Shown here piece by piece: positions 455 to 26,452 of a stretch of DNA of 62,247 bases. Source of the stretch: a virus; the IMG/VR virus record IMGVR_UViG_3300009285_004982; one strand, 5' to 3'. Position 1 is the stretch's first letter; the number at the start of each line of letters is the position of its first letter. The position numbers and the translations under genes are program-made. Below the pieces are notes generated by a model. The model was not told the DNA's origin. It worked only from the letters and a program-made list of their open reading frames with translations, and did not search any database.

Positions 455-3208
455 ATGGACAATGGACATAAGCCAAGGGACATCCGTCCCTCCGTAGATC
501 TAAAAGATTTTGACACCGACACAGAAGACAAACCCACCCAGCCATACAATTTCCAGCTCATCGAAAACGATTACATTCGCAAACTAGAAGAAGACGATGT
601 CCGTCAATTCGCTCTCCCCGGAATAATACCGGGCGCCAAGAGCCAGGAAATCCAGGACGACCCGGACGGAACATGGCGCAATATCACCACAGGATTGCCG
701 GAGGGCGTCATCCCGACCGTCGATGATTTGCGGAAATGGAAAGACGCGAGTTACCAACGATACGAGATCGATCCAAATTATCGCGGGCTGATCGACGGGT
801 TTCTTTTCTTCACCATCGGGCAGGGAATGAAAATATCTCCGCTCGATGAATCACAGGAAGTCCGGGATTATGTCAGCGAGTGGATAAAAATAAACGAGTT
901 CGACGGACGTGATCGGGATCTCGTCGAGAAATTTCTGAAAGCCGGGGAATGCTATGTCCGATTTTTCACCACGGATGCCGATGGCCGCGCAGCGAAATAT
1001 CCGGCGATGCGTCTTTACAGCTACTGGGAAATAAATAAGATTGTCCGTGATCCGAAGAACAGGGAAAATATTCTTGAATTTCACCGGCCCTATCGAAACA
1101 GTAAAGGCGATGCGGATATCGAAATAATCCCAGGCGGCGAAATGATCCATATAAAATTCGGATGCAAAGACGACGAACGCGGAAAACCTCCGTTTGCCTC
1201 GATCATGAAGTTCTGCGAATATTATTCCGATTGGTTATTTAACCGTATCGTGCTCAACCGAACGAAGACGGCATTCTATCTTGAGATGATTGTTAAAGGT
1301 TCCCCGGCGGACGTGACGACGGCGGATAACGCGACGCCCGATAGCACGCGGGTAGGACGCGGCGGTAAGAAAATAAAACGGATGCCGAAACCGGGAACGG
1401 TATTGGTTCACAATGACGCCGTAGAGTACAAATGGCTCTCGCCGGATGTAAAAGCCGATGATGCGAAAGAAGATGGACGCGCCATTCGCATGGCAATTCT
1501 GGCCGGAGCCCAGGCACCGGAATTTCTATTGGGCGATGCCAGCCAATCGAACTATTCGTGCCATGATGAAAAAACGGAACTTTTAACAAAAAGAGGATGG
1601 GTCAAATATTCGGATATTTCTTCTAACGATAAAGTTGCAACAATGAATCTAGAAACAAATCATTTGGAATTTCAAAAGCCAAATAAAATTATAATTAATC
1701 GATACGACGGAGAAATGATAAAGATAAAATCACGAAGCAATGATTTACTTGTGACACCAAACCATCGGATCATTGGTACAAGAGAAATATTAACAAGAAC
1801 AGGAGGACGTCAAGCCCCATTGTTGAGAACAGGCCAAGTAAGAGATTGGGAATTTTTTGAAGCGGAAGAACTTTTGAAGCATAGATCATATTGGATCGTT
1901 CCAACAAAACTCGATTTACCGAAACCAAAAGACATGATTTCGTCTGTGACAATTGATGGGATTAATTCAAAGTTTAATGGATTCAACGATCATATCAGGA
2001 ATCCGAGATCGATTGAAATAGAAACATGGCTTCGATTCCTTGGTCATTGGTTAACAGATGGATGGATAACAAAAGATGGGATATCTACTCACTATATGGT
2101 TGGTATTTCCCAAAGACCTGGGGAAGTCGCTAATCGCATAAGGGAAAATTTGCAGAAAATGCCAAATTTTAAATTTCACGAATGTTTAAACGCAGATGGA
2201 ATGATTGCATTCCAGGCAAACGATAAAGGATTACACGGATGGCTCGAAACAAATTGTGGTTATGGAGCACTTAATAAAAGATTACCTAGTTTTTTTAGGA
2301 ATTTAGATAAAGATCAATCCCTCATTTTTTTGGATGCTCTTATTGATGGGGATGGCACTCGATATCCAAATGGGAGCATGCATTATAGGTCTTCCAGCAT
2401 TAAATTAATCGACGATGTGATGGAATTAATTTTAATGGCCGGATTTTTTCCTCAGCCACCATGGTCAAATTCAAATCCGAACGAATGTATGACGATTCCA
2501 ATTCGATATTATGACAAAAAACATATTAATCCGAATACGGAGGTGTCGCTTGAATATTATCATGGAGATGTATGGTGTGTTTCTGTTGATAACGAATCTA
2601 TCGTGACGAGAAGAAATGGAATGATTGCAATTACCGGGAATAGCACGATGATTGCCCAGAATCCGTTTGTACGCAAGATAGAGTATCTTCAGGATTTCAT
2701 CGAATATTACGTTTGCGATATATTCAAATGGGTTTTGAATTATGCGATACAGAATAAATTTCTTCCCTCGATATCGCAAGAGACAATTATGCGCGAGAAA
2801 GCTCATGACGTGACGCTCGTTCGACGGATGAAGAAATGGTTTGATTTCAAAGAGGCGTATGACAGCAACGGGAATATCGTCGTCAAAGAAAAAGTTCCGA
2901 CGAAAATAGATATCGATGTTAACTGGCCGCCGCTCATTGCCCAGAACATGCTGCAGGATTCTCAGGCCTATCAAATCCACCAGGCGATGGGTATCGTCTC
3001 GAACGAGACACTTGCACAGAAACTAGGATACGATTGGGAAGATGAACAGCGAAAGATGGAACGGGATGTGAATCAGGCAAAGGCGGATGACGCTGACATT
3101 GACGATGAGGAAGAAAAGAGAGACGAGGAAATAAAGAATCCGTTCTTAAAGAAGGAAGCGAATGCTTCCAAGGACGACGAGAAAGAAGACAGCGATGCCG
3201 ACGCTTGA
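455..3208 (+). CDS. Portal protein interrupted by an in-frame intein (1559..2641)
   Basis: 917-aa ORF directly after terL with RBS AAGGGGA and an acidic C-terminal tail. Exteins total about 556 aa. The insert is bounded by SNYS|C...TGN|S. Confidence 0.75.
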   Translation: MDNGHKPRDIRPSVDLKDFDTDTEDKPTQPYNFQLIENDYIRKLEEDDVRQFALPGIIPGAKSQEIQDDPDGTWRNITTGLPEGVIPTVDDLRKWKDASYQRYEIDPNYRGLIDGFLFFTIGQGMKISPLDESQEVRDYVSEWIKINEFDGRDRDLVEKFLKAGECYVRFFTTDADGRAAKYPAMRLYSYWEINKIVRDPKNRENILEFHRPYRNSKGDADIEIIPGGEMIHIKFGCKDDERGKPPFASIMKFCEYYSDWLFNRIVLNRTKTAFYLEMIVKGSPADVTTADNATPDSTRVGRGGKKIKRMPKPGTVLVHNDAVEYKWLSPDVKADDAKEDGRAIRMAILAGAQAPEFLLGDASQSNYSCHDEKTELLTKRGWVKYSDISSNDKVATMNLETNHLEFQKPNKIIINRYDGEMIKIKSRSNDLLVTPNHRIIGTREILTRTGGRQAPLLRTGQVRDWEFFEAEELLKHRSYWIVPTKLDLPKPKDMISSVTIDGINSKFNGFNDHIRNPRSIEIETWLRFLGHWLTDGWITKDGISTHYMVGISQRPGEVANRIRENLQKMPNFKFHECLNADGMIAFQANDKGLHGWLETNCGYGALNKRLPSFFRNLDKDQSLIFLDALIDGDGTRYPNGSMHYRSSSIKLIDDVMELILMAGFFPQPPWSNSNPNECMTIPIRYYDKKHINPNTEVSLEYYHGDVWCVSVDNESIVTRRNGMIAITGNSTMIAQNPFVRKIEYLQDFIEYYVCDIFKWVLNYAIQNKFLPSISQETIMREKAHDVTLVRRMKKWFDFKEAYDSNGNIVVKEKVPTKIDIDVNWPPLIAQNMLQDSQAYQIHQAMGIVSNETLAQKLGYDWEDEQRKMERDVNQAKADDADIDDEEEKRDEEIKNPFLKKEANASKDDEKEDSDADA
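1559..2641 (+). mobile_element. Class-1 intein (361 aa) with a LAGLIDADG homing-endonuclease domain
   Basis: Cys1 (CHDEKTELLT), block B LLVTPNHRI (TxxH), two LAGLIDADG-like motifs (LRFLGHWLTDGW and FLDALIDGDGT), blocks F/G DVWCVSVDNESIV...GMIAITGN, then Ser+1. The segment is visibly more AT-rich than its flanks. Confidence 0.8.
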
Positions 3209-17209: not shown

Positions 17210-17418
17210 CAGTATCTCATATTCAGAAATCTTCACGGATTCAGATCGGCTCTGAAAATGAATCGCTGACTATTCCGGCTCCTGATTCCGGACGATACAA
17301 TTGCCTGGAATCAATAACCGTTGAATCAAGTGCCGGATCTGATATGACGATAACATCGGGATCGAAGACGTTTAAGGTAGCAATTGGTCCGGGAAGCGGA
17401 TGGAAAGAGAAATTTTAA
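17206..17418 (+). CDS. Hypothetical protein
   Basis: 70-aa ORF overlapping the upstream stop. Confidence 0.4.
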   Translation: MTVSHIQKSSRIQIGSENESLTIPAPDSGRYNCLESITVESSAGSDMTITSGSKTFKVAIGPGSGWKEKF

Positions 17419-17422
17419 GCTC

Positions 17423-18187
17423 ATGATCTATTTCGTCCCCGCACGAAAAGACTCGAAACGAATACCGAACAAGAACACGCTTAAAGTTCTCGGGAAACCG
17501 CTTATTCAATACACGCTCGATCTAGTTTCGGAAATGAGTAAAGATAAGTCCTACTCAGGACCCGTCTACGTGTCAACCGACGACGAGGTGATTATCCAGA
17601 TCGCCAAGAGCTATGGATTCAACTGGTACAAGCGAGACGAGGAATTGTGTTCCGACAGGGCAAAGATGTCGGACGTTCTTTTCGATGCCGTTAATTTATT
17701 CGAATTAGAGGAGAAGGATATCTGCGTTTTATATCCGACGAGCCCGCTTCGTCTTGCCGATCATGTGAGAGAGGCCTGTATCGTCTGGAAACAGAAACAG
17801 AATCCGGTGTCAACTCTTATGAGCGTCTGTCCCGTTCTCTATCGTCCCTATGGTCTTATGGAGATACAGGCGAATGGGTTTCTCCACTGTAAACATCCAT
17901 ATGGCGAACTCTTCTATCAGGGACAGAATCAGCCAGTCGATTACCGGGCGAATGGGGCGATCTATATCATCCCTAAACAGGTCATTTTAAAACGAGAAAT
18001 CAATTCCCAACTTTTCAACAAAACGACGATCCCGTATGTGATGGACCCGATCAGCAGCCTTGAGATCGACACGCCGGAAGATATCCTGATCGCCGAGCAC
18101 TATCTATCAAAAAAAAATACAGCCAAATTTATCTACTCCCCTACTGTGACGAATCCGAAGGATTCCTATGCCTTCAGTTCTCATTAA
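17423..18187 (+). CDS. neuA: Acylneuraminate (nonulosonate) cytidylyltransferase, CMP-NulO synthetase family
   Basis: N-terminus MIYFVPARKDSKRIPNKNTLKVLGKPLIQYTLD matches the CTP_transf_3 signature. The ORF track start (TTG 17384) overlaps the upstream gene, so ATG 17423 is preferred. Confidence 0.75.
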   Translation: MIYFVPARKDSKRIPNKNTLKVLGKPLIQYTLDLVSEMSKDKSYSGPVYVSTDDEVIIQIAKSYGFNWYKRDEELCSDRAKMSDVLFDAVNLFELEEKDICVLYPTSPLRLADHVREACIVWKQKQNPVSTLMSVCPVLYRPYGLMEIQANGFLHCKHPYGELFYQGQNQPVDYRANGAIYIIPKQVILKREINSQLFNKTTIPYVMDPISSLEIDTPEDILIAEHYLSKKNTAKFIYSPTVTNPKDSYAFSSH

Positions 18188-19925
18188 TGTCCGGCCCTAT
18201 GTCTATCCAGGCGATGTTGTCGATAAACTAGATCGCAACTGCATAAAGAACGCCAAAATCCTTTTTATCAATATGCCACTCCGGGAGACAGCAGTTCCAA
18301 ATTGCCTTCCCCTTGGCCCCGCTCTTCTTGCCGCCACATTAAGACAATGGGAAGCCGTTCCGACGATGATCGATCTGAATGCCTATCGATTCAAAGATGC
18401 GAATGCAGAACTCAAAGGACTCAAAAACGGACGGACGATAAACGAGGTCGAGGCGGCGGATCTCATTCGAGGACACATTCGTGTCCATAGAATGCCGGAT
18501 ATGGTGGCCATGTCAGGCATGATTACAACCCTTAGATGGCAAATGACTGTCGCCAAAATTGTCAGGAATCTCATGCCGGATGTTTTCCTGGTAACAGGAA
18601 ATGGTCTGGCGACTGAATTCAAGGAAGGTCTTTTCCAGTGGATACCTGAACTCGATGGCGTGGCCCACTCGGAGGGTGATCTTTCGATCATCAAGATGAC
18701 ATACGATGCCGTTCAAATCAAACGCCTCGGTCAACACGGAGCCTATCTTTCAGGGAATCTTGACCCCTATTGTCTCGGTCTAGTTGGATCAAATGAAACG
18801 AATGTTTCAAAGTACCGGTTTCTATATGATGGTGGGCGTCCTAAGAACTTGGATGATCTCTCATTCCCGGCTTATGATCTCCTAGAGAAAGATGTGAATG
18901 GGTTTCCAGTTCTAGAAACTTATATCAAGAATGAAATATGGGGACTTAAGGCCAACAATTCAAGTGCAACATCATTCACAATGAAGAGGTCAATCAATAC
19001 CGTATCGAGCAGAGGATGTCCGTTTCAGTGTTCGTATTGTTTCCGTGGAGCTACTGGCGAACGAAATTATGCTGTTCGATCCGCCAAGAATTTAGCCGAG
19101 GAATTCATTCACTATGCAGACAAATATAATATCGACTTCGTGGGGGTAACGGATGATAACTTTTGTGTTCAACGAAAACGAATCCTTGATATGGAACCGT
19201 ACTTCATACCCCTCGTACGAAAGTCGAATATCCGTTGGGGGACCCATGCTCGTTTGGACGAAGCCGCAGATCTCACGCCGAATCGTCATGGTGAAGGATT
19301 TATATTCAACAACCCGAAACGAGTCGATAGTATGGCCAAATCTGGATGTGTCTATATCGGATTCGGAGGGGAAAGCGCCCATAAAACAACTCTCGAAAAC
19401 ATGGGAAAAGGTGGATTCATATTGGTCAACGGATTCGTAAATTGGCGTGGATTCGAATTCCCGCGAACGATGGTCGAGGGAATAAAGAACACCAAATATT
19501 CCGGAATCGACGCAAATTGTACTTGGATCAGACAGTTTCCAGGTGAAACCCTTGATCAATTAAAAACAACAATCGCTTTTATTATGTGGCAAAAGGAATT
19601 TTATTCTCAGTTCGGAGATGGTTCCGAATCGGTAAATCGCAATATGTTCGTGGCAACAGCATATCCTGGAACGGAAATGTTCAAACATCCAATCGTCCGA
19701 CAGAAACTTCACGACAATTTCGGAATCAATTACGATCAATTCGGAACTCCCGTTATCGACGATAATCTGAAATATTATGTTCTAGAGTTGGACGATGCTG
19801 ACAAAATTATGAAAGATCAACAGGGGAGAATTTTGAATTATGGCGAGCTGACAGAAGATCAGTTCATGGAAGCGGATGGATACGTGAAATCAAATCGGAT
19901 AGAAAAAATACTGGAGATGAAATGA
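18168..19925 (+). CDS. Radical SAM enzyme with an N-terminal B12-binding-like domain
   Basis: CxxxCxxC cluster motif SSRGCPFQCSYCF. The N-terminal region (LFINMPL...LPLGPALLAA) resembles class-B radical SAM proteins. Confidence 0.75.
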   Translation: MPSVLINVRPYVYPGDVVDKLDRNCIKNAKILFINMPLRETAVPNCLPLGPALLAATLRQWEAVPTMIDLNAYRFKDANAELKGLKNGRTINEVEAADLIRGHIRVHRMPDMVAMSGMITTLRWQMTVAKIVRNLMPDVFLVTGNGLATEFKEGLFQWIPELDGVAHSEGDLSIIKMTYDAVQIKRLGQHGAYLSGNLDPYCLGLVGSNETNVSKYRFLYDGGRPKNLDDLSFPAYDLLEKDVNGFPVLETYIKNEIWGLKANNSSATSFTMKRSINTVSSRGCPFQCSYCFRGATGERNYAVRSAKNLAEEFIHYADKYNIDFVGVTDDNFCVQRKRILDMEPYFIPLVRKSNIRWGTHARLDEAADLTPNRHGEGFIFNNPKRVDSMAKSGCVYIGFGGESAHKTTLENMGKGGFILVNGFVNWRGFEFPRTMVEGIKNTKYSGIDANCTWIRQFPGETLDQLKTTIAFIMWQKEFYSQFGDGSESVNRNMFVATAYPGTEMFKHPIVRQKLHDNFGINYDQFGTPVIDDNLKYYVLELDDADKIMKDQQGRILNYGELTEDQFMEADGYVKSNRIEKILEMK

Positions 19926-20557
19926 TTGATACGGAAACGATGAGAGAAAGACCAAGGCCCGCGTTCACGAAAGAAAGATTCTATGTCGATCACATGATGA
20001 AACACGGAATGGCTCTCTATCGTCGCCACGTGAGCCGCTACAAGTGGGCGGCCAGCCATCTAACCAGTGAGATGGAAGTGCTTGATGCCGGATGCGGTTC
20101 TGGTTATGGGGATTACATCCTGCTCAACAATTGCCTTAAGATGACATCCATTGACCAATCGGGAGAAGCCATCGAGTACGCGACTTATAAAGCTGAATCA
20201 TTGAATGAGAAGCGGATCAAGTATGGTGTTTCTACACTCCAGGATTATATGGCGAGTCCATCAAAATCTCATGCCATTGTCTGTATCGAGGTCATCGAAC
20301 ATTTGTCGGAAGAGAATCAACGCGCGTTTATGGCCGGGATGAAAAACGCGTTCTTCAAAAAAGAGGATGCCTTGTTGTTAATCACGACTCCGATCAGAAA
20401 AGAAGATAAATGGACTGAGTATCATGAACACGAATTCACGAAGTCTGAATTCCAGAATTTCCTATCAACCTATTTTCAGGATGTCCACTTCGAGGATCAG
20501 AAGAAATGGGATATACCGCATGATTTCCTATTAGGTGTATGTAGGGGCGTGCGATAA
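19922..20557 (+). CDS. Class I SAM-dependent methyltransferase
   Basis: Motif I VLDAGCGSGYGD and post-I IVCIEVIEHL. Confidence 0.7.
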   Translation: MIDTETMRERPRPAFTKERFYVDHMMKHGMALYRRHVSRYKWAASHLTSEMEVLDAGCGSGYGDYILLNNCLKMTSIDQSGEAIEYATYKAESLNEKRIKYGVSTLQDYMASPSKSHAIVCIEVIEHLSEENQRAFMAGMKNAFFKKEDALLLITTPIRKEDKWTEYHEHEFTKSEFQNFLSTYFQDVHFEDQKKWDIPHDFLLGVCRGVR

Positions 20558-21966
20558 TGAAACTATTCGGTAATGAGATCGGGAAAGGAAAAACACTTAT
20601 CTGTGTGGAAATTGGGATCTGCCATCAGGGAAATATGTCGATGGCCATCGAGATGATCGACATCGCCAAGGAGTGTGGGGCTGACGTTGTAAAGTTCCAA
20701 AAGAGGTCACTCAAACATCTTTATCGGAAGCCAGTCCTGGATAACCCGTCCGACGCCGCCCATTCTCTCGGCGTCTATATCCCGATCTTGGAGAAATGCG
20801 AGCTGACTGAGGACGAACATATCCGGCTGAAAAAGCATTGTGACGAGATAGGCATTCCTTACTTTTGCTCACCGTGGGATACGCCATCGATTGACTTCCT
20901 CGAATCTCTTGGGGTCGAGGCCTATAAGGTGCCGAGTGCCCTGATGTCGGATATATTTCATTTAGAGAGAATAATCAAAACAGGTAAGCCTTTTATTTTA
21001 TCTACTGGAATGCATTATGAAGACGAAATAGATGAAATCATGAAATTCATTGATGAGAAGGCAGAAGCAGAAAATGTTCCACGTGGCGTTCCACATAAAC
21101 AGATTATAGAATTGACGGATGAAATTTTGTCGATGCGGAAAAGAGGCACGCCAAAATCAACGGACGTGTCTAGAATGCCATCGGAATTATATGCGATGGT
21201 GGAAAAAATACAATCCCTTGACAAAAGAACAGAGATTCAAAATGAATTGTCGATCCTATACGCACGTTTATGTGAAGCGGGGAATAATCCAGAAGAATCC
21301 ATGCGAATTTTGTGGGGAAGCCAATGTACAGGCTCACCATACCGATTACAGCAAACCACTGAAAGTTCAATGGCTTTGCAAGACCCACCATCATTCACTC
21401 CATCGATCCCTCTCAAACAACGCATTGCATTGATGCACTGCGTCTCGAGCTATCCGACAGCCAACAAAGACATCAACCTGAACTATATGGGGGTCATGCG
21501 GGCCAAATACGGCCTTCCTGTCGGCTTCTCCGGCCATGAGCGCGGGATTCCCATCACCGTGGCCGCTGTGGCGCTGGGTGCACCAATCATAGAACGCCAC
21601 TTTACCCTAGATAGAACCCTTCCGGGGCCGGATCATGCCGCCAGCCTCGAACCACACGGCCTAGAAACGCTTGTGAGGCACATTAGGGCCGTTGAAGAGG
21701 CCTTGGGCGACCGGAAGGTCGTCAATCGCGGGGAATACATGGCCCGCGAGACTTTGGGGAAGATCTTAACCTGGGCTCAGGATCTCGAATCGAATTCGCC
21801 AGTAGGCGCACATTCATTTACAGCTTCGAGCCCAGGCTATGGTGTTCCGGTCTACAAGGGGCCCAAGTTTGTTGATATGCAATTGGTAACGACCAAGCCC
21901 GTCAGGGCCGGGGAACCTGTTTTTGAAACTGAATTGACTTATGGGAAAAAGGGAGAAAACGAATGA
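20557..21966 (+). CDS. neuB: Nonulosonic (sialic / legionaminic / pseudaminic-type) acid synthase, NeuB family, with an in-frame insertion of about 120 aa
   Basis: LICVEIGICHQGNMSMAIEMIDIAKECGADVVKFQKR, ILSTGM, ALMHCVSSYP, GFSGHE, IERHFTLDR..GPDHAASLEP, plus a C-terminal SAF-like domain. E. coli NeuB has about 20 aa between STGM..EI and ILHC; here there are about 140. Confidence 0.8.
   Translation: MKLFGNEIGKGKTLICVEIGICHQGNMSMAIEMIDIAKECGADVVKFQKRSLKHLYRKPVLDNPSDAAHSLGVYIPILEKCELTEDEHIRLKKHCDEIGIPYFCSPWDTPSIDFLESLGVEAYKVPSALMSDIFHLERIIKTGKPFILSTGMHYEDEIDEIMKFIDEKAEAENVPRGVPHKQIIELTDEILSMRKRGTPKSTDVSRMPSELYAMVEKIQSLDKRTEIQNELSILYARLCEAGNNPEESMRILWGSQCTGSPYRLQQTTESSMALQDPPSFTPSIPLKQRIALMHCVSSYPTANKDINLNYMGVMRAKYGLPVGFSGHERGIPITVAAVALGAPIIERHFTLDRTLPGPDHAASLEPHGLETLVRHIRAVEEALGDRKVVNRGEYMARETLGKILTWAQDLESNSPVGAHSFTASSPGYGVPVYKGPKFVDMQLVTTKPVRAGEPVFETELTYGKKGENE
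21119..21433 (+). CDS. HNH endonuclease-like ORF nested in an alternative frame inside the neuB insertion
   Basis: 104 aa: CRCG...CLECH...NPCEFCGEANVQAHHTDYSKPLKVQWLCKTHHHSLH, which is a beta-beta-alpha-Me / zinc-ribbon pattern of small phage HNH proteins. The frame is offset from neuB. Weak RBS. Confidence 0.55.
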   Translation: MKFCRCGKEARQNQRTCLECHRNYMRWWKKYNPLTKEQRFKMNCRSYTHVYVKRGIIQKNPCEFCGEANVQAHHTDYSKPLKVQWLCKTHHHSLHRSLSNNALH

Positions 21967-22787
21967 AACGAGGATGCAAGGCAAGGCCGCACGATATCGA
22001 CCAAGTGATTGAGATATTCAAGCCGGAACTGATTGAGATTCACGCAAGCTCTGAAGATCTCAAGAAAGAGTTTAACAAAGACTACGATCTACCTCTCGTT
22101 GTTCATCTTCCAGAATATGATCAGTCTGAGCTTATCGACGTAGCCTCCCTGGATGAGAAGAAACGAATCCAGGCGGTCAAGTTCTATAACAACGCCATGA
22201 ACGTGACGCGCAATTGGAGTAAGCGGTTTCGCGGGACTCCAAAATCCGTGCTCCATCCTGGGGGTATTAGTATCGAGCCAACGAACGCTTTGCAGAAACG
22301 GGAAATGTATGAGCAGCTTGGGAAATCGTTATCGGAAATCAACTCGCTGGGAGTGGATTTATTGCTTGAGAACATGCCGCCAAACCCTGTATTTTTTGGA
22401 GGCAGTTGGAAGTGCAACATATTCCTAGCGCCGCGAGATTGCATTGATTTTTGCAGCGGTCTTGGCTATGGTTTCGTATTCGACACATCACATGCCGGAA
22501 TGTTTTGTAATTCGGTAGAAAATGAAATAGATATTATGAAGTTTGCGACAATGGTCAGACCCGTGACGGCCCATATTCACTTAAACGATTGTAGGGATGT
22601 TGACCAAGAAGGGCTTGCTCTTGATTCGGGCACATTGGATTGGAGATCCGTTATTAGATATTTCGAATCTATGCCAATTGGTGTTGTCAGCGAGTGTTGG
22701 AACGGCCACAAGGATTCATGTCGAGGATTTATCGAGGATTGGAAAAAGGTTGACGAAGCGTTGAAAAAGGAAACGGTAGAAGGATAA
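21963..22787 (+). CDS. Xylose-isomerase-like TIM-barrel protein (sugar phosphate isomerase/epimerase family)
   Basis: VVHLPEYD...VLHPGG...LLLENMPP...FDTSHAGMF...HIHLND pattern. Confidence 0.5.
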   Translation: MKRGCKARPHDIDQVIEIFKPELIEIHASSEDLKKEFNKDYDLPLVVHLPEYDQSELIDVASLDEKKRIQAVKFYNNAMNVTRNWSKRFRGTPKSVLHPGGISIEPTNALQKREMYEQLGKSLSEINSLGVDLLLENMPPNPVFFGGSWKCNIFLAPRDCIDFCSGLGYGFVFDTSHAGMFCNSVENEIDIMKFATMVRPVTAHIHLNDCRDVDQEGLALDSGTLDWRSVIRYFESMPIGVVSECWNGHKDSCRGFIEDWKKVDEALKKETVEG

Positions 22788-22791
22788 CAAA

Positions 22792-23085
22792 ATGGCGGAA
22801 ATGACTGAAGCGGAAATCATAACTAAAATAAATTTAATCGATACAGCGATTGCGACCATCACTACCAATTTGGCAGCGGGCGGAAGCGGGGCCGTGGAGT
22901 ACGTTGATTATAGCATGGGAAGCAAAACTGTTGCCGGATCTCAGACATTGAAGCAACTCATGGAAGCAAGAAAATTATATGAAGATCTTTTAAGAAAAAT
23001 ACCTTCCGTAACAATGAGAGACCATGGATATAGCGTCAAGGATGGTAGCGGTGAAAATGAAACTGAATATGTCGGAGATGAGTGA
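22792..23085 (+). CDS. Putative head-tail joining protein (gpW-like)
   Basis: 97 aa, positioned at the start of the connector block. Helix - GG..V.Y....K - helix pattern. Confidence 0.35.
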   Translation: MAEMTEAEIITKINLIDTAIATITTNLAAGGSGAVEYVDYSMGSKTVAGSQTLKQLMEARKLYEDLLRKIPSVTMRDHGYSVKDGSGENETEYVGDE

Positions 23086-23086
23086 A

Positions 23087-23842
23087 TTAAATATGTTTCC
23101 ATATTTTACAAGAAATGATTTTAAATATATGAGATGCCTTAATTTTAAACATACGCATAAGATCGCATTGTCGCATTCCTGTTTCATAATATTTTCTTAT
23201 TTGTTTAACTTTGTGTTCTGTAAGTCTTGCTCGATAATGTTTTTCGCCATCAATTCCGCGACCTTTTATATACATATCATGAACATTATCCAACTGAGTA
23301 CCAAGAAACAAATGCGCCGGATTGCAACACGATGGATTATCACCGCCGGGGCAATTGTGGAGAACATGAATTCCTTCTGGGATTGGGCCGTTATGAATTT
23401 CATAAGAGATTCGATGCGAAAAGAGAGTAGAATGTTTTCCTTTTTTATAATCGCCCATTATTCCATAGCCATACGGCAATTTATTTCCAAGCCATATCCA
23501 GCATGTTGGTGTTTTTTTAATAAATTTCCAAAATCTTTTTTCTATTGGGAGTTTTACGGGACCTGTTTTTTTAAATGGTATTGATATCAAATGATCGAAT
23601 GCAATGCATTTATTATTTCCGCAAAAATTCATAATTGTATAGCGGGATTGAAGTGGTTGATTAAAAGTCCATATAATATTTCTAATCCATATTTTCGTTT
23701 TATTAATTTCTTTTTTTATATAAGGCCTATTCGAATCAATTGCGCCATGCCATTCCAAACATTCTCCATTTTGTTTAATCTTATCGGAGAAAAAGAGAAG
23801 AAATTCGTTAAAGCTTTTAAAATTGGTAGGATATTTCTGCAT
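23087..23842 (-). CDS. Free-standing HNH (HNH_3-type) homing endonuclease
   Basis: 251 aa on the minus strand in an AT-rich island. CWIWLGNKLPYGYG...FSHRISYEIHNGPIPEGIHVLHNCPGGDNPSCCNPAHLFLGTQLDNVHD. It has a second N-terminal half-domain CLEWHG...CGNNKCIAFDHL. Confidence 0.8.
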   Translation of the reverse strand: MQKYPTNFKSFNEFLLFFSDKIKQNGECLEWHGAIDSNRPYIKKEINKTKIWIRNIIWTFNQPLQSRYTIMNFCGNNKCIAFDHLISIPFKKTGPVKLPIEKRFWKFIKKTPTCWIWLGNKLPYGYGIMGDYKKGKHSTLFSHRISYEIHNGPIPEGIHVLHNCPGGDNPSCCNPAHLFLGTQLDNVHDMYIKGRGIDGEKHYRARLTEHKVKQIRKYYETGMRQCDLMRMFKIKASHIFKIISCKIWKHI

Positions 23843-23917
23843 TGGGACTTACCTCCTAATGTCATGCCTCTGGTCGCTAATACGACGCAGGGGCTTTTAT
23901 ATTGGAGATTATACTAA

Positions 23918-24283
23918 ATGACCATTGCTGATCATACAACAGGTCTTGTCGCAACAACACTTTGGGGCGAAAGCGTTATTGTCCGTCGGAACTCACCAAA
24001 TTTTAGCGACACCGGGGTAGCCACCGATTCTTGGGCGACAGTTGTCACCGTAAACGCGGATCTCCAGCCTTTGGCTCCCGGATCTCTTGCCACAGTCGCC
24101 ATCGGTGAGATGAGGACTTCGACCCATCGATTTTATTTCCCTGATGGAACAGATATATTGGAGGGAGATCGAATCAGACCATCCGGATGGGTTGCGGGAG
24201 ATGATGAATTCGTGGTTACTGGGGTTATGGACGATGAGGGGCATTTTGAAGTCTACGCCCAGAGGGTGAGGGGACATGGCTGA
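23918..24283 (+). CDS. Head-tail adaptor / head closure protein (SPP1 gp16-like)
   Basis: 121 aa. NADLQPLAPG...STHRFYFP...ILEGDRI...FVVTGVMDDEGHFEVYA matches the Phage_H_T_join pattern. Confidence 0.55.
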   Translation: MTIADHTTGLVATTLWGESVIVRRNSPNFSDTGVATDSWATVVTVNADLQPLAPGSLATVAIGEMRTSTHRFYFPDGTDILEGDRIRPSGWVAGDDEFVVTGVMDDEGHFEVYAQRVRGHG

Positions 24284-24734
24284 CTATATTGAGATAGAAG
24301 TCGATAGTGTTTCATTGGCGAAAACGATTGCTGCCTTGAAAAAGAAGGGTGTTGATTATAAGAAAACGGCGGTCAAAGCGCTTGATTGGGGCGCATCTGA
24401 AATCGAGAAGCATGCAAAGGAACGCCATTTCTTTGTTGGTACTGGACGCAACGCAGCGAAGAAAGCAAAAGACGGTGAACTGAAATTCACGAATCCTGAT
24501 GGTTCTTTGCGATTCAAGGTAAGAACAGGAGGTTTGACGGCTAGTATTCATCCAAAGGATTCGAAAGTTGTTGGCGATACGGTGACGGCCTCGGTAATAG
24601 CGGGTGCTAAATATGCGGAAGATGTAGAAAAAGGAATTGGTCACCGGGCCTTTCCTTTTTTAAGACCAGCCCTGGAAGCAAATAGAAACAAGATTCTTGC
24701 ACGATTGATTTCTGATTTAAAGGCATTGGTTTAA
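24276..24734 (+). CDS. HK97 gp10-family tail/neck component
   Basis: AKYAEDVEKGIGHRAFPFLRPALEAN is typical of the gp10 family. Confidence 0.55.
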   Translation: MADYIEIEVDSVSLAKTIAALKKKGVDYKKTAVKALDWGASEIEKHAKERHFFVGTGRNAAKKAKDGELKFTNPDGSLRFKVRTGGLTASIHPKDSKVVGDTVTASVIAGAKYAEDVEKGIGHRAFPFLRPALEANRNKILARLISDLKALV

Positions 24735-24735
24735 T

Positions 24736-25209
24736 ATGGAAAAGGTCGATGAGGCCATTTACAAAACATTACGCGACGATAGCGAAGCATCGGTTGGAAT
24801 CCGGGCACTATTGGGAAATACCACGACAACCCCTTACAATACATACCATGCTTTCCTTCCCGACAACATCGATTTTTCTCCGGCTGCTGGCAATGTAGGA
24901 TTTATTGTCTATATGAGAATATCAAGCACGCCGGATCTTGGCGTCCATAGTTTGTCAACGCTAACAGAACAAAGCGTATATCAGATATCGGCCTATCATC
25001 GAGTATTGTCTTCCGTTGAGGCCATCCATCGTCGAATTAAGAAGCGATTATTGCGTCTCGATCATGTAACGCAGCCAACGAGTCAATCCGGTCTTTATCA
25101 ATTGCTTTTGGAATCGGAAGATCCGGTGACGTTTGATGATTCGTTCAAAGTCTGGTTTCAACAGAAATATTATCGCGCATGGGTGAGGGACGATGACATT
25201 ATCTCCTAA
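24736..25209 (+). CDS. Putative tail terminator / tail completion protein (DUF3168-like)
   Basis: 157 aa, sits between gp10-like and tail tube genes. N-terminus VDEAIYKTLRDD...LLGN. Confidence 0.4.
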   Translation: MEKVDEAIYKTLRDDSEASVGIRALLGNTTTTPYNTYHAFLPDNIDFSPAAGNVGFIVYMRISSTPDLGVHSLSTLTEQSVYQISAYHRVLSSVEAIHRRIKKRLLRLDHVTQPTSQSGLYQLLLESEDPVTFDDSFKVWFQQKYYRAWVRDDDIIS

Positions 25210-26452
25210 AGATGAACATCTCAAGACGAAAATAGAAATACATCGTAAACAACGCAAACGAATCATGAATGAATTTCGTGATATATACACTTTTTTTTCA
25301 AATGATGAGGCGGAGATAATTGACGGCGAAAACGGAGCGACCCTCTTCGCCCTCAATGGATCGAAGAATGAATTCAAGAAGGAAGATCGTATTTTCTCCG
25401 ACGGGAGAGTCTATGACGTGATGAACATCCAGAAACATGAACTGGCTGATCTTAAATTCAAGGTCGCGGTAACGAAACAGAATGAATTCGAGACCCAGAT
25501 TAAGAAACTTCAGGATTTTGGATGCCATGTCGAATATGGGGTAACGCGACCCATTGTCCAGCGCGATTATGCGAGTGAGGATTATCTGAACGATTGGGTT
25601 GGACTCTATATCAAGAACATCGTGGCACATTATGATGAGATAAAGAACGGGCATAAAATTCAGGAATTACAGGGTCTCTTTAATCATGATATTCCGGCCC
25701 TCTGTGTAGGCGCAGGGCCGAGTTTAGATGCGAATGTGCATCTTGTCCACGAGTTCCCCGGTATTGTGATATCGACGGATAAATCATTCAAAATGCTTTT
25801 AGCCAGGAATATCATTCCTGATTTCGTGATCAGCGTGGATTGCCATCCGAATATTATCTCAGATATGCTGAGGGTACCTTATGGATTCCACACGAAATTG
25901 ATTCTCAATTCGTCGTCTGATCCAGAGATCTCAAAGCATTGGAAGGGCCCCATCTTCTATTACAACATGATCCACTACGGTGTTCAATTCATGGACAAGA
26001 TCCTGCCAGCCCTTTTCCCCGATCTTCACGGGATTATCAATTCCGGGAATGTCGGGAATTCGAGTGTCCTCTTCGCCGACTATATCGGGCTTAGTCCTAT
26101 CGTTATGATCGGACATGATTATGCTTATACGGGCGGGCGAATGCACGCGCAACGGTTCGAGATCGAGAAGGACGGAAGTGTTCGCGAGATCCGAGATGAT
26201 CACGAAAAAATGCTATTCGAGAGAACAGGGAAAGTGAAAGTTGGAGACAACGAGACGTATGTCCCATTCTTGAATTACAGGGAAACGCTATACGATTTAC
26301 GTAGTAAACGAGGTTTTGACATTATCAATTCAACAGAAGGCGGAATTTTGGAAGAAATTCCTAATATCAAATTTCAAGATGTCATTGAAGGTTTGAAACC
26401 GAAAATTGGGGATCGATATGTTGAGGCCCGTCACAAAATTAATTCCATCTAA
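25193..26452 (+). CDS. Maf / DUF115 family protein, copy 3 (with an N-terminal extension)
   Basis: PALCVGAGPSLDANVHLVHEFPGIVISTDKSFKMLLARNIIPDFVISVDCHPN, then SGNVGNSS...VMIGHDYAY. Confidence 0.65.
   Translation: MTLSPKDEHLKTKIEIHRKQRKRIMNEFRDIYTFFSNDEAEIIDGENGATLFALNGSKNEFKKEDRIFSDGRVYDVMNIQKHELADLKFKVAVTKQNEFETQIKKLQDFGCHVEYGVTRPIVQRDYASEDYLNDWVGLYIKNIVAHYDEIKNGHKIQELQGLFNHDIPALCVGAGPSLDANVHLVHEFPGIVISTDKSFKMLLARNIIPDFVISVDCHPNIISDMLRVPYGFHTKLILNSSSDPEISKHWKGPIFYYNMIHYGVQFMDKILPALFPDLHGIINSGNVGNSSVLFADYIGLSPIVMIGHDYAYTGGRMHAQRFEIEKDGSVREIRDDHEKMLFERTGKVKVGDNETYVPFLNYRETLYDLRSKRGFDIINSTEGGILEEIPNIKFQDVIEGLKPKIGDRYVEARHKINSI

What the first reader, a model, noticed from the sequence alone, without database searches (positions are those of the whole stretch)
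21055..21433. HNH endonuclease gene overprinted in an alternative frame inside an in-frame insertion of neuB
Seen: NeuB homology is interrupted between STGMHYEDEIDEIMKFI and IALMHCVSSYP by about 120 extra residues, where E. coli NeuB has about 20. Within exactly this segment a second, same-strand frame encodes a 104-aa ORF (21119..21433). It has two Cys pairs and NPCEFCGEANVQAHHTDYSKPLKVQWLCKTHHHSLH, a typical small phage HNH pattern. Its stop overlaps the point where NeuB homology resumes. The neuB frame stays open and returns in frame. Inference: a homing-endonuclease gene has invaded neuB without an obvious intron or intein, being tolerated as a loop insertion while translated from a shifted frame. 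Alternatively it is an unrecognised self-splicing intron whose sequence happens to be stop-free. Same-strand alternative ORFs of about 100 codons occur a few times elsewhere in this genome, so chance is not excluded.
Basis: partly seen in the sequence, partly recalled or inferred. Interest (0 to 1): 0.75.

Follow-up and report, generated by a model that had tools for sequence, protein, structure and literature searches.

The report
Nuclease gene hidden inside phage neuB
A small mobile nuclease gene sits inside a phage sugar-synthesis gene (neuB) in a shifted reading frame, while the host gene reads straight through it as an extra protein loop; this is a recently recognised third way, besides introns and inteins, for selfish DNA to live inside a gene.

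Summary
neuB (20557..21966) carries an in-frame insert of about 117 codons (about 21058..21411). Syntenic phage relatives lack it. A 104-aa ORF (21119..21433) in the +1 frame belongs to a phage endonuclease family (PHROG E=3e-13; 430 phage records; predicted zinc ribbon plus beta-beta-alpha). With the nuclease protein held fixed, synonymous reshuffling leaves the neuB frame open in at most 0.04% of trials.

A second neuB lineage (L001) has the same dual-frame insert. Its 98%-identical sister allele (L091) is empty, and a 208-nt tract with 11.5% mismatches flanks the insert, as expected for homing with co-conversion. No intron or intein signal was found.

The same cassette sits in at least 8 unrelated host proteins, always in the same phase. 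Its 5' leader is a parS-like site, and the empty allele has a 15/16 parS palindrome at the insertion point.

The architecture was first described in 2025 (the ShiLan "hidden out-of-frame HNH" element), so this is a new variant of a known kind. Expression, nuclease activity and target are inferred, not shown.

The parts
20557..21966 (+). neuB-family ORF (469 aa) that reads through the insert. It is a nonulosonic-acid synthase of the NeuB/PseI family.
   Evidence: ORF list. Pfam PF03102 2e-78 in two stretches. TIGR03569 at 271 bits, below the equivalog cut-off of 399.65. The AF2 model superposes on solved NeuB 1xuu (E 1.6e-26) and PseI 8h2c (TM by target 0.83).
20557..21057 (+). NeuB part upstream of the insert (residues 1-167, through ...STGMHYEDEIDEIMKFIDEK).
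   Evidence: Alignment with uninterrupted relatives. pLDDT above 90.
21058..21411 (+). Inserted cassette of about 118 codons; the boundaries are uncertain by about 12 nt. It is translated in the neuB frame as a read-through peptide (AEAENVPRGVPHKQ...PSFTPSIP).
   Evidence: Absent from P0003-P0033 and from syntenic loci L087/L088. It has 0 stops in the neuB frame. It is predicted as helices 180-195, 209-220, 224-240 and 245-253 (pLDDT 63-84) plus a disordered stretch 255-280. GC drops to 0.33-0.43 against 0.5-0.63 in the flanks.
21075..21094 (.). parS-like leader TGTTCCACGTGGCGTTCCAC. Positions 21075-21090 match 12/16 of the parS palindrome TGTTCCACGTGGAACA, and a second half-site CGTTCCAC lies at 21087-21094. 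It is read as NVPRGVP in the neuB frame.
   Evidence: The motif is conserved 14-90 nt upstream of many family members, both free-standing and embedded. The exact 12-mer occurs 5 times in 333 kb of loci. The identity of the palindrome with a documented parS comes from PMC4368675.
21074..21109 (+). An 11-codon mini-ORF in the endonuclease frame (MFHVAFHINRL*). It is probably the remnant of the ancestral 5' end of the endonuclease ORF, now cut off by TAG (21107) and TGA (21113).
   Evidence: Frame translations. In L013, L020 and L026 the endonuclease frame is open from this ATG/GTG (MFHV...).
21119..21433 (+). Endonuclease ORF of 104 aa, in the +1 frame relative to neuB.
   Evidence: PHROG hits. 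430 phage records. Free-standing relatives P0121-P0123. AF2 mean pLDDT 80. BFVD matches to HNHc- and EndoVII-annotated proteins. All nearly invariant family residues are present.
21128..21181 (+). N-terminal zinc-ribbon-like CxC...CxxCH segment (C4, C6, C17, C20, H21) of the endonuclease.
   Evidence: Read from the sequence. Seven of 41 family members hit the Pfam family Zn_ribbon_PaaD (best E 9.2e-05), and several other zinc-ribbon families are hit more weakly.
21302..21403 (+). Predicted beta-beta-alpha-metal core of the endonuclease (C62-x2-C65 ... H73 H74 ... W85-L-C87 ... H91 ... H95).
   Evidence: DSSP on the model gives E71-73, E84-86, H88-102. These are invariant or nearly invariant columns.
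21412..21966 (+). NeuB part downstream of the insert (LKQRIALMHCVSSYP... to the stop). The last 22 nt of the endonuclease ORF overlap its start.
   Evidence: Alignments. pLDDT above 90.

Best explanation
A mobile cassette of about 350 bp, encoding a small zinc-ribbon/HNH-EndoVII-like endonuclease, is inserted in the coding sequence of the phage's neuB gene.

The cassette is 'translationally transparent'. The frame one base upstream of the nuclease frame is kept free of stop codons and is a multiple of three long. Ribosomes translating neuB therefore read straight through and make a NeuB with an extra excursion of about 117 residues. The excursion is partly helical and partly disordered. It sits in the loop between a helix and the next strand of the TIM barrel, which by barrel topology is the face opposite the active site.

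The nuclease is made separately, by internal initiation at ATG 21119 in the +1 frame of the same mRNA. No RNA or protein splicing is needed.

The cassette spreads between neuB alleles of co-infecting phages by nuclease-triggered recombinational repair (homing), dragging flanking neuB sequence with it.

Shown here: the insertion, the selection on both frames, the recurrence in other hosts, and the filled/empty alleles with a conversion-like tract.

Inferred: translation of both products, nuclease activity, retention of NeuB function, and the identity of the target. The target is possibly a parS-like palindrome.
For: Insertion relative to syntenic uninterrupted neuB genes.

The nuclease ORF is a real family member.

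The neuB frame is open far beyond chance given the nuclease protein: at most 0.0004 in the window and at most 0.002 in L001. All 10 embedded copies have 0 stops in the host phase against 2-8 in the other phase, whereas free-standing copies typically have 1-18.

The nuclease frame is the primary selected frame: differences run pos3 > pos1 > pos2.

The NeuB core is predicted intact, with pLDDT above 90 on both sides, and superposes on solved NeuB and PseI. All invariant NeuB residues are retained.

No intron was found and no intein domain.

Insert-bearing NeuBs are polyphyletic.

L001 (filled) and L091 (empty) are 98% identical, with a net +369 nt. In the 208 nt immediately 3' of the insert there are 24 mismatches (11.5%), against 0.16-0.41% elsewhere (Fisher p 3e-18). 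Nineteen of the 24 are at third codon positions.

Shine-Dalgarno sequences precede the internal ATG in L026, L017, L011 and L009.

The architecture has a precedent in PMC11855218.
Against: There are no expression data for either product.

The window copy has only a weak ribosome-binding sequence (GACGG directly abutting the ATG), and L001 and L014 have none.

No Pfam HNH model is matched. There is no significant match to solved HNH structures, by fold or by profile. The nuclease assignment therefore rests on PHROG hits, GenBank annotation, the motif pattern and the BFVD fold matches.

L001's copy has Y in place of the second His of the HH pair, so not every copy need be active.

The insert part of the NeuB model rests on only two sequences.

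The empty and filled alleles differ by two indels around the parS-like site (28 nt and 341 nt), not by one clean insertion, so the history at the site is not simple.
Confidence: 0.8

Rival explanations
1. The insert is a self-splicing intron (group I, group II or an unrecognised type) carrying a homing-endonuclease ORF. Its open neuB-frame reading is incidental.
For: Phage HNH homing endonucleases are commonly intron-encoded (established knowledge; PMC3943268 was listed). The insert is AT-richer than its flanks.
Against: An Rfam scan at E up to 10 finds no intron in 20000-22500. The nuclease ORF fills 315 of about 354 nt, which leaves no room for a ribozyme core. The leader RNA has no excess structure (z = -0.08). 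A stop-free, in-phase host frame is maintained in 10 diverged copies against strong odds, which an excised intron would not need.
Confidence: 0.03
2. The insert is removed after translation, as an intein-like or otherwise self-excising protein segment.
For: It is in frame and stop-free, like an intein.
Against: No Hint/intein domain is found in Pfam or NCBIfam. The junctions lack the required residues: there is no Cys/Ser/Thr at the insert start, no His-Asn at its end, and Leu/Lys/Arg follow it. About 117 residues of helices and disorder do not form a Hint fold.
Confidence: 0.02
3. The host-frame peptide is itself a functional module, either a second cassette product or a domesticated NeuB domain. 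The nuclease ORF is then secondary or decaying.
For: The read-through peptide has conserved features across hosts (NVP.G.PHKQ ... LP.LSR.VYE ... LQELR.R..E.G..EEA.R..WG...APP.LR). It also occurs as a stand-alone ORF of about 120 aa that spans a free cassette (L009 1136..1513; P0136). Embedded pairs show slightly more conserved nuclease third positions (0.52 differing against 0.57-0.62). The helices are predicted at pLDDT 63-84.
Against: Most free-standing family members have many stops in that frame. Third positions of the nuclease frame, which are first positions of the host frame, vary most. The peptide matches no Pfam or PHROG family. All conserved nuclease residues are intact in the window copy. 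Much of the peptide's conservation follows automatically from conservation of the overlapping nuclease frame.
Confidence: 0.08
4. neuB is functionally dead in this phage. The open frame is kept only so that ribosomes pass through to the translationally coupled downstream gene (polarity avoidance).
For: neuB's stop overlaps the next gene's start (ATGA at 21963-21966). In L009 a free cassette bridges two genes with a stop/start overlap at both ends and an open +2 ORF across it.
Against: All invariant NeuB residues are kept in two insert-bearing lineages whose NeuB backbones are about 40% diverged. The core is confidently folded in the model. The whole sugar pathway around it is intact.
Confidence: 0.05

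Closest known systems
ShiLan domain and the Pacc40 gp60 insertion: 'hidden out-of-frame HNH' elements in actinophage DNA methylases (Arsenault, Gosselin and Gogarten 2025, PMC11855218)
   Same: An insertion in a phage gene that is stop-free in the host frame. An endonuclease ORF in another frame fills almost the whole insert, starting a few codons in and stopping at its very end. No intron or intein signature. A patchy distribution suggests homing. The read-through peptide is predicted as a loop clear of the host fold.
   Different: The nuclease is different and much smaller (104 aa against 195 and 160 aa). The phase differs: the nuclease is +1 relative to the host here, and 'third frame' there. 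The host gene (neuB) and the phage type differ. Here the same cassette is found in at least 8 unrelated host proteins in one fixed phase, it also exists free-standing, and it has a parS-like leader. Homology between the two nucleases was not tested because no ShiLan sequence was at hand.
Free-standing phage homing endonuclease genes (T4 seg/mob genes; F-CphI with an EndoVII motif, PMC6083498)
   Same: A small nuclease gene without an intron or intein, relatives lying between phage genes, and co-conversion of flanking markers (the T4 behaviour is from my own knowledge).
   Different: Those sit between genes or split genes into pieces. This one sits inside an ORF that stays continuous through dual coding.
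Zinc-ribbon HNH nicking endonucleases of phages (PMC3592412)
   Same: Small size, a zinc ribbon plus an HNH-like core with CxxC pairs.
   Different: Those lie next to cos/terminase and serve packaging. This family does not match the Pfam HNH models and lacks the Asn of H-N-H (VxWLC replaces NLxxLC, read).
Inteins and group I intron homing elements
   Same: A selfish nuclease gene living inside a conserved host gene without destroying it.
   Different: Those remove themselves from the protein or the RNA. Here nothing is predicted to be removed: the element is tolerated as extra polypeptide.
Rickettsia palindromic elements (RPEs) inserted in frame in protein genes; the T4 gene 60 / mobA bypass cassette (both from my own knowledge)
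   Same: Selfish DNA inside ORFs that leaves the host protein functional, by being translated (RPE) or bypassed (gene 60).
   Different: RPEs encode nothing of their own. Gene 60 uses ribosome hopping, not read-through.

Membership tests
ShiLan-type out-of-frame endonuclease insertion element (architecture class) | The insert is present in some alleles and absent from close or syntenic homologs. | tested here: met
   P0003-P0033 and L087/L088 are uninterrupted. The empty allele L091 is 98% identical to the filled L001.
ShiLan-type out-of-frame endonuclease insertion element (architecture class) | The insert is a multiple of three long and stop-free in the host frame. | tested here: met
   0 stops, frame restored. 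Chance is at most 0.0004. The same holds in 10 embedded copies.
ShiLan-type out-of-frame endonuclease insertion element (architecture class) | A second, same-strand frame encodes an endonuclease that fills most of the insert. | tested here: met
   The ORF takes 315 of about 354 nt. PHROG 'endonuclease' at 3.4e-13. BFVD matches to HNHc/EndoVII.
ShiLan-type out-of-frame endonuclease insertion element (architecture class) | No intron and no intein signature. | tested here: met
   Rfam negative. Leader fold z = -0.08. No Hint domain. Junction residues are wrong for an intein. Absence of splicing itself cannot be tested with these tools.
ShiLan-type out-of-frame endonuclease insertion element (architecture class) | Sequence homology of the nuclease to the ShiLan or Pacc40 nucleases. 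| not tested
   No ShiLan sequence was available. An accession I recalled turned out to be another phage. Mycobacterium is not among the ten commonest organism names in the 430 tblastn records.
HNH / beta-beta-alpha-metal nuclease superfamily | A match to a curated HNH or Endonuclease_7 profile. | tested here: not met
   No Pfam HNH-type family at E up to 1 for the ORF, or at E up to 0.1 for any of 41 family members. No NCBIfam hit.
HNH / beta-beta-alpha-metal nuclease superfamily | A beta-beta-alpha fold with a Cys/His zinc site and an HH catalytic pair, similar to known members. | tested here: inconclusive
   The AF2 model shows beta-beta-alpha at 71-102. Foldseek against PDB finds nothing (best E 1.2). 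The PDB profile search gives only a CasD-HNH domain at E 1.2. BFVD gives HNHc, EndoVII and HNH-annotated viral proteins at E 3e-5 to 3e-3.
HNH / beta-beta-alpha-metal nuclease superfamily | Metal-dependent DNA cleavage. | not testable with these tools
   Needs purified protein.
Homing endonuclease gene (functional class) | Biased transfer into empty alleles with co-conversion of flanks. | tested here: inconclusive
   A filled/empty pair with an 11.5%-divergent 208-nt tract next to the insert, and a polyphyletic distribution. Both are consistent with homing, but directionality (gain versus loss) and nuclease dependence are not shown.
Group I / group II intron | A ribozyme core detectable by covariance model. 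| tested here: not met
Intein | Hint domain blocks, an N-terminal Cys/Ser/Thr, and a C-terminal His-Asn followed by Cys/Ser/Thr. | tested here: not met
NeuB family (PF03102), nonulosonic-acid synthases | A Pfam NeuB match and the TIM-barrel plus SAF-like fold. | tested here: met
   Pfam 2e-78. Foldseek to 1xuu and 8h2c. Which sugar is made (Neu5Ac, pseudaminic or legionaminic acid) is not resolved: TIGR03569 and TIGR03586 are both below their cut-offs.

The most novel reading that the evidence does not exclude
This is one member of a widespread, previously undescribed lineage of endonuclease cassettes specialised for life inside other genes. The lineage keeps a dedicated stop-free frame that can be fused into any host protein, which would make 'translated-through' elements a third general strategy beside introns and inteins. 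Its ends are the two halves of a bacterial centromere site (parS). In this reading the nuclease recognises parS-like palindromes and homes into or next to them.
Probability: 0.3. Interest if true: 0.8.

Novelty: new variant of a known kind. Interest (0 to 1): 0.66.

Why it matters
Homing endonuclease genes were thought to survive inside essential or useful genes only by hiding in self-splicing introns or inteins. The ShiLan report of 2025 suggested a third route from two actinophage cases. This window, and the relatives found from it, show three things:

- The route is used by an unrelated, much smaller nuclease family.
- It recurs in at least eight unrelated host proteins in one fixed phase.
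- It leaves the population-genetic footprint of homing (a filled/empty allele pair with a conversion tract).

It gives a compact, testable system: a 354-bp cassette with a candidate 16-bp target. That system can address how two overlapping frames are kept open, how an internal out-of-frame ORF is translated, and how much insertion a TIM-barrel enzyme tolerates.

There is also a practical consequence. Gene callers annotate only the long host ORF, so such nucleases are systematically missed, and the 'extra domains' in phage proteins may be selfish DNA.

Tried and rejected
- **Pfam and NCBIfam on the 104-aa ORF, and Pfam on 41 family members:** no HNH model.
- **Foldseek of the nuclease model against PDB:** no significant hit. 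The PDB profile search gave only sub-threshold hits.
- **blastn of the neuB region against GenBank phages:** no match. tblastn of the read-through peptide against phages: no match. So no cultured phage has the embedded form.
- **Viral-contig scans** with the nuclease protein and with the 31-nt leader pattern: nothing.
- **Profile of the read-through module (A6) against the 5.8-billion-protein set:** only 2 hits, and it did not recover its own input sequences. I treat this as a failure of the word index, not as evidence of rarity.
- **Genome-contig scan:** a single MAG hit.
- **Promoter scan inside neuB:** none. Leader RNA fold: not different from shuffles.
- **Test of whether perfect parS 16-mers in IMG/VR are next to family nucleases:** 0 of 120. 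Those are ordinary parS sites with unrelated flanks, so the parS link rests on the cassette ends and on the one empty allele only.
- **An accession recalled for phage ShiLan** was a different phage and was discarded.
- **P0144**, suspected to be an empty allele of the window's own neuB, is only a truncated filled copy.
- **Terminal-inverted-repeat transposon:** considered, because L013 has TGTTCCACGT...ACGTGGAACG flanking a 357-nt cassette. Neither adopted nor excluded: most embedded copies lack the right half.
Full report
**1. The observation.**
The window has a 469-aa ORF at 20557..21966 and, inside it on the same strand in the +1 frame, a 104-aa ORF at 21119..21433. Pfam matches the long ORF to NeuB (2e-78), but in two stretches. 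The second begins at residue 287 = profile position 140. Relatives of about 350 aa have 27-28 residues between the STGM and HC.SSYP motifs, whereas the window has 144. The insert is therefore about 117 codons, roughly 21058..21411. The neuB frame has no stop through it, while the third frame has 10. GC falls from 0.5-0.63 in the flanks to 0.33-0.43 in the insert. The same protein is on 23 contigs from three sources, the longest being this 62,247-nt window, and 99% variants exist. It is not an assembly artefact.

**2. Is the second ORF real?**
Pfam and NCBIfam give nothing. PHROGs gives phrog_2340 'endonuclease' at 3.4e-13 and phrog_11793 at 8.9e-10. tblastn finds relatives in 430 GenBank phage records, annotated 'endonuclease', 'endonuclease VII' or hypothetical. 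In phage phiEB49, for example, the relative is a free-standing 117-aa gene next to Erf and exonuclease VIII. The large protein set holds three called relatives (55-61% identity), all of them small free-standing genes on phage-like contigs.

An AlphaFold model (mean pLDDT 80) shows two helices followed by a beta-beta-alpha unit at residues 71-102. Foldseek finds nothing significant in the PDB. In the viral predicted-structure library it matches proteins named HNHc domain, recombination endonuclease VII and HNH endonuclease at E 3e-5 to 3e-3. None of 41 family members reaches a Pfam HNH model, and a family profile against PDB sequences gives only a CasD-HNH domain at E 1.2. I therefore call it a zinc-ribbon / HNH-EndoVII-like endonuclease. 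The superfamily assignment is probable but not proven. All nearly invariant family residues are present in the window copy.

**3. Are both frames selected?**
I held the nuclease amino-acid sequence fixed and redrew synonymous codons. The neuB frame stayed open in 0 of 5000 trials (codon-usage model) and 2 of 5000 (permutation) for the window, and in 0 and 10 of 5000 for the second example, L001. The other frame was never open. Across aligned family members, differences follow pos3 > pos1 > pos2 of the nuclease frame in every class, so the nuclease frame carries the main amino-acid constraint. Pairs of embedded copies show only slightly more conserved third positions (0.52 differing against 0.57-0.62). 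The host frame is thus constrained mainly to stay open.

This has a simple basis, which I infer. A stop in that frame needs a nuclease codon ending in T followed by one starting with AA, AG or GA. That combination can always be avoided by a synonymous change.

**4. Not an intron, not an intein.**
An Rfam scan at E up to 10 over 20000-22500 finds no intron. The nuclease ORF occupies 315 of about 354 nt, which leaves no room for a ribozyme. The leader RNA folds no better than shuffles (z = -0.08). No Hint domain is detected, and the junction residues are wrong for protein splicing.

The NeuB model (mean pLDDT 87.8) has pLDDT above 90 on both sides of the insert. It superposes on solved NeuB (1xuu, E 1.6e-26) and PseI (8h2c, TM 0.83 by target). 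The insert extends the helix after strand 146-149, forms four helices (pLDDT 63-84) and a disordered stretch (255-280), and returns just before strand 290-294. That is a helix-to-strand loop. By TIM-barrel topology (established knowledge) this loop lies on the face opposite the active site.

**5. A second neuB example, and a filled/empty allele pair.**
P0002 (locus L001, syntenic: methyltransferase, NeuB, AP_endonuc_2) has an insert at the same site, with a homologous 104-aa ORF in the same +1 phase and an open neuB frame. With the insert columns removed, the NeuB tree does not group the insert-bearing proteins. The window's nearest relative is the uninterrupted P0003, and P0002's nearest is the uninterrupted P0022. 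A third, distant NeuB (L014, 37% identity, GC 0.61) has the cassette at the same position.

P0022 (locus L091, from a sister sample of the same study) is 98% identical to P0002 on both sides and lacks the insert. At the DNA level the filled allele has a net 369 extra nt. Mismatches are 1 in the 641 nt upstream and 3 in the 725 nt further downstream, but 24 in the 208 nt immediately 3' of the insert (11.5%; Fisher p 3e-18). Nineteen of the 24 are at third codon positions. This is the pattern expected if the insert arrived by recombination from a diverged neuB donor and dragged flanking sequence with it, that is, homing with co-conversion. The direction (gain or loss) and the dependence on the nuclease are inferred.

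**6. The same cassette in other proteins.**
A metagenome scan with a family alignment gave 80 loci. In 10 of them, representing 8 different host genes, the nuclease lies inside a much longer ORF, and that ORF is always +2 relative to the nuclease, the same phase as in the window. The hosts are:

- a distant NeuB;
- an LPD22 'polyvalent' protein of at least 1628 aa;
- proteins of at least 999 and at least 1294 aa;
- a GT1 glycosyltransferase;
- small Cys-rich proteins.

All 10 embedded copies have 0 stops in the host phase and 2-8 in the other. Free-standing copies typically have 1-18 stops in the host phase.

Searching the window's read-through peptide against 1.84 billion representative proteins gave 18 hits at E up to 1e-3, at internal positions of proteins of 121-4447 aa. 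They include an Mgm101/Rad52-like annealing protein, a GT2 glycosyltransferase, a GGDEF protein and giant InPase/SLT/PBECR5/RadC polyvalent proteins. Two of the hits look like coiled-coil noise. The read-through peptides align with one another. In an NJ tree of the nucleases, embedded and free-standing copies are interspersed, though resolution is low. GenBank phages have no embedded copy.

**7. Anatomy of the cassette, and the parS-like ends.**
A nucleotide motif, ATGTTCCACGT..., lies 14-90 nt upstream of the nuclease in 22 of 54 loci. Its phase is fixed in embedded copies, where it is read as NVPR in the host frame. Its phase is variable in free-standing copies. In L013, L020 and L026 its ATG/GTG opens the nuclease frame (MFHV...). 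In the window that start is cut off by two stops, which leaves an 11-codon remnant (21074..21109).

The inverted half, ACGTG[GA]AACA, lies next to the nuclease stop in L019, L022 and L037. In L022 and L037 the TGA stop is part of it. L013 has both halves around a 357-nt cassette. The empty allele L091 carries AAATGTTCCACGTGGAACT exactly at the insertion point, in a different phase.

The 16-bp palindrome TGTTCCACGTGGAACA is a documented chromosomal parS site (P. aeruginosa parS2/parS3; PMC4368675). The window leader matches it at 12/16, L001 at 13/16 and L091 at 15/16. The exact 16-mer occurs in at least 120 IMG/VR contigs with unrelated flanks, and none of them has a family nuclease nearby. 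Those are ordinary parS sites.

I therefore propose, as an untested inference, that the nuclease recognises parS-like palindromes and that the cassette sits in or beside one. The filled and empty alleles differ by two indels around the motif (28 and 341 nt). The history at the site is therefore not a single clean insertion.

**8. Expression.**
There is no promoter-like site inside neuB, so the nuclease is most simply translated from the neuB mRNA. Good Shine-Dalgarno sequences precede the internal ATG in L026 (AAAGGAGGATT-ATG), L017, L011 and L009. The window has only GACGG abutting the ATG, and L001 and L014 have none. In L009 a free cassette (1136..1520) is wedged between two genes. The upstream stop overlaps the leader ATG (TAATG), a 125-aa +2 ORF spans the cassette, and the nuclease stop overlaps the next start. 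This suggests that continuous ribosome passage is part of what is selected.

**9. Comparison with what is known.**
The architecture was described in 2025 for the ShiLan domain and for Pacc40 gp60 in actinophage DNA methylases. Those are inserts that are stop-free in the host frame, carry a hidden HNH ORF (195 and 160 aa), lack an intron or intein signature and have a patchy distribution (PMC11855218). No other paper on this architecture was found.

The present case shares every architectural feature. It differs in nuclease size and family (homology untested), in phase, and in host gene. It also differs in three points found here: one cassette lineage in many unrelated hosts in a fixed phase, the coexistence of free and embedded forms, and parS-like ends.

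**10. Verdict.**
It is a new variant of a recently described kind, not a new kind. Its interest lies in showing that the strategy is general, in the clean filled/empty evidence for mobility, and in a candidate target that makes the mechanism testable.

Noticed in passing
window 17384-26452: neuB lies in a phage-borne nonulosonic-acid module: CMP-sugar cytidylyltransferase (17384-18187), a B12/radical-SAM enzyme (18168-19925), a methyltransferase (19922-20557), NeuB, a xylose-isomerase-like TIM barrel (21963-22787) and an MptE/Maf-like protein (25193-26452). In the syntenic relative L087 it sits next to head-tail connector genes. This suggests the phage makes and perhaps attaches a modified sialic-acid-like sugar.
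   Followed up: partly
L091 650-668; window 21075-21094; L001 1941-1959: The cassette leader and the empty neuB site are parS-like (TGTTCCACGTGGAACA is a documented parS). A centromere-like palindrome inside a phage neuB coding sequence is unexplained in itself.
   Followed up: partly
L092-L211 (IMG/VR contigs): The exact 16-mer ATGTTCCACGTGGAAC occurs in at least 120 viral contigs with unrelated flanks over a wide GC range. Several sit next to terminator-like hairpins or gene starts. They are presumably phage or prophage parS sites.
   Followed up: partly
L009 1136-1520: A free-standing cassette is wedged exactly between two genes, with stop/start overlaps at both ends. Two overlapping ORFs (125 aa in +2, 112 aa nuclease) both span it. 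P0136 (121 aa) looks like the same +2 ORF called as a gene.
   Followed up: partly
L017 about 2400-2900 and L026 about 2400-2900: The host sequence is duplicated on both sides of the cassette (DIFAELEAIENE | cassette | DIFDELNAIENE). This recalls the ShiLan report that the start of the insert resembles the sequence after the insertion site.
   Followed up: no
L001 1986-2300: The L001 nuclease has Tyr in place of the second His of the conserved HH pair (AHYSDY), so that copy may be catalytically impaired although its ORF is intact.
   Followed up: no
L040 412-2043 and L045 1410-2924: Two family nucleases are overlapped by long antisense open frames (544 and 505 aa). Local GC is 0.64 and 0.54, so this may be chance. 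Not examined.
   Followed up: no
P0144 (ENA, contig of 15,507 nt): A 99%-identical copy of the window's neuB with the insert is truncated after residue 331 in another assembly. This could be a frameshift variant or an assembly error.
   Followed up: no
P0039-P0120: Many bacterial relatives are fusions of NeuB, a SAF domain and an AP_endonuc_2 domain (about 630 aa). In these phages the last domain is a separate downstream gene whose start overlaps neuB's stop.
   Followed up: no
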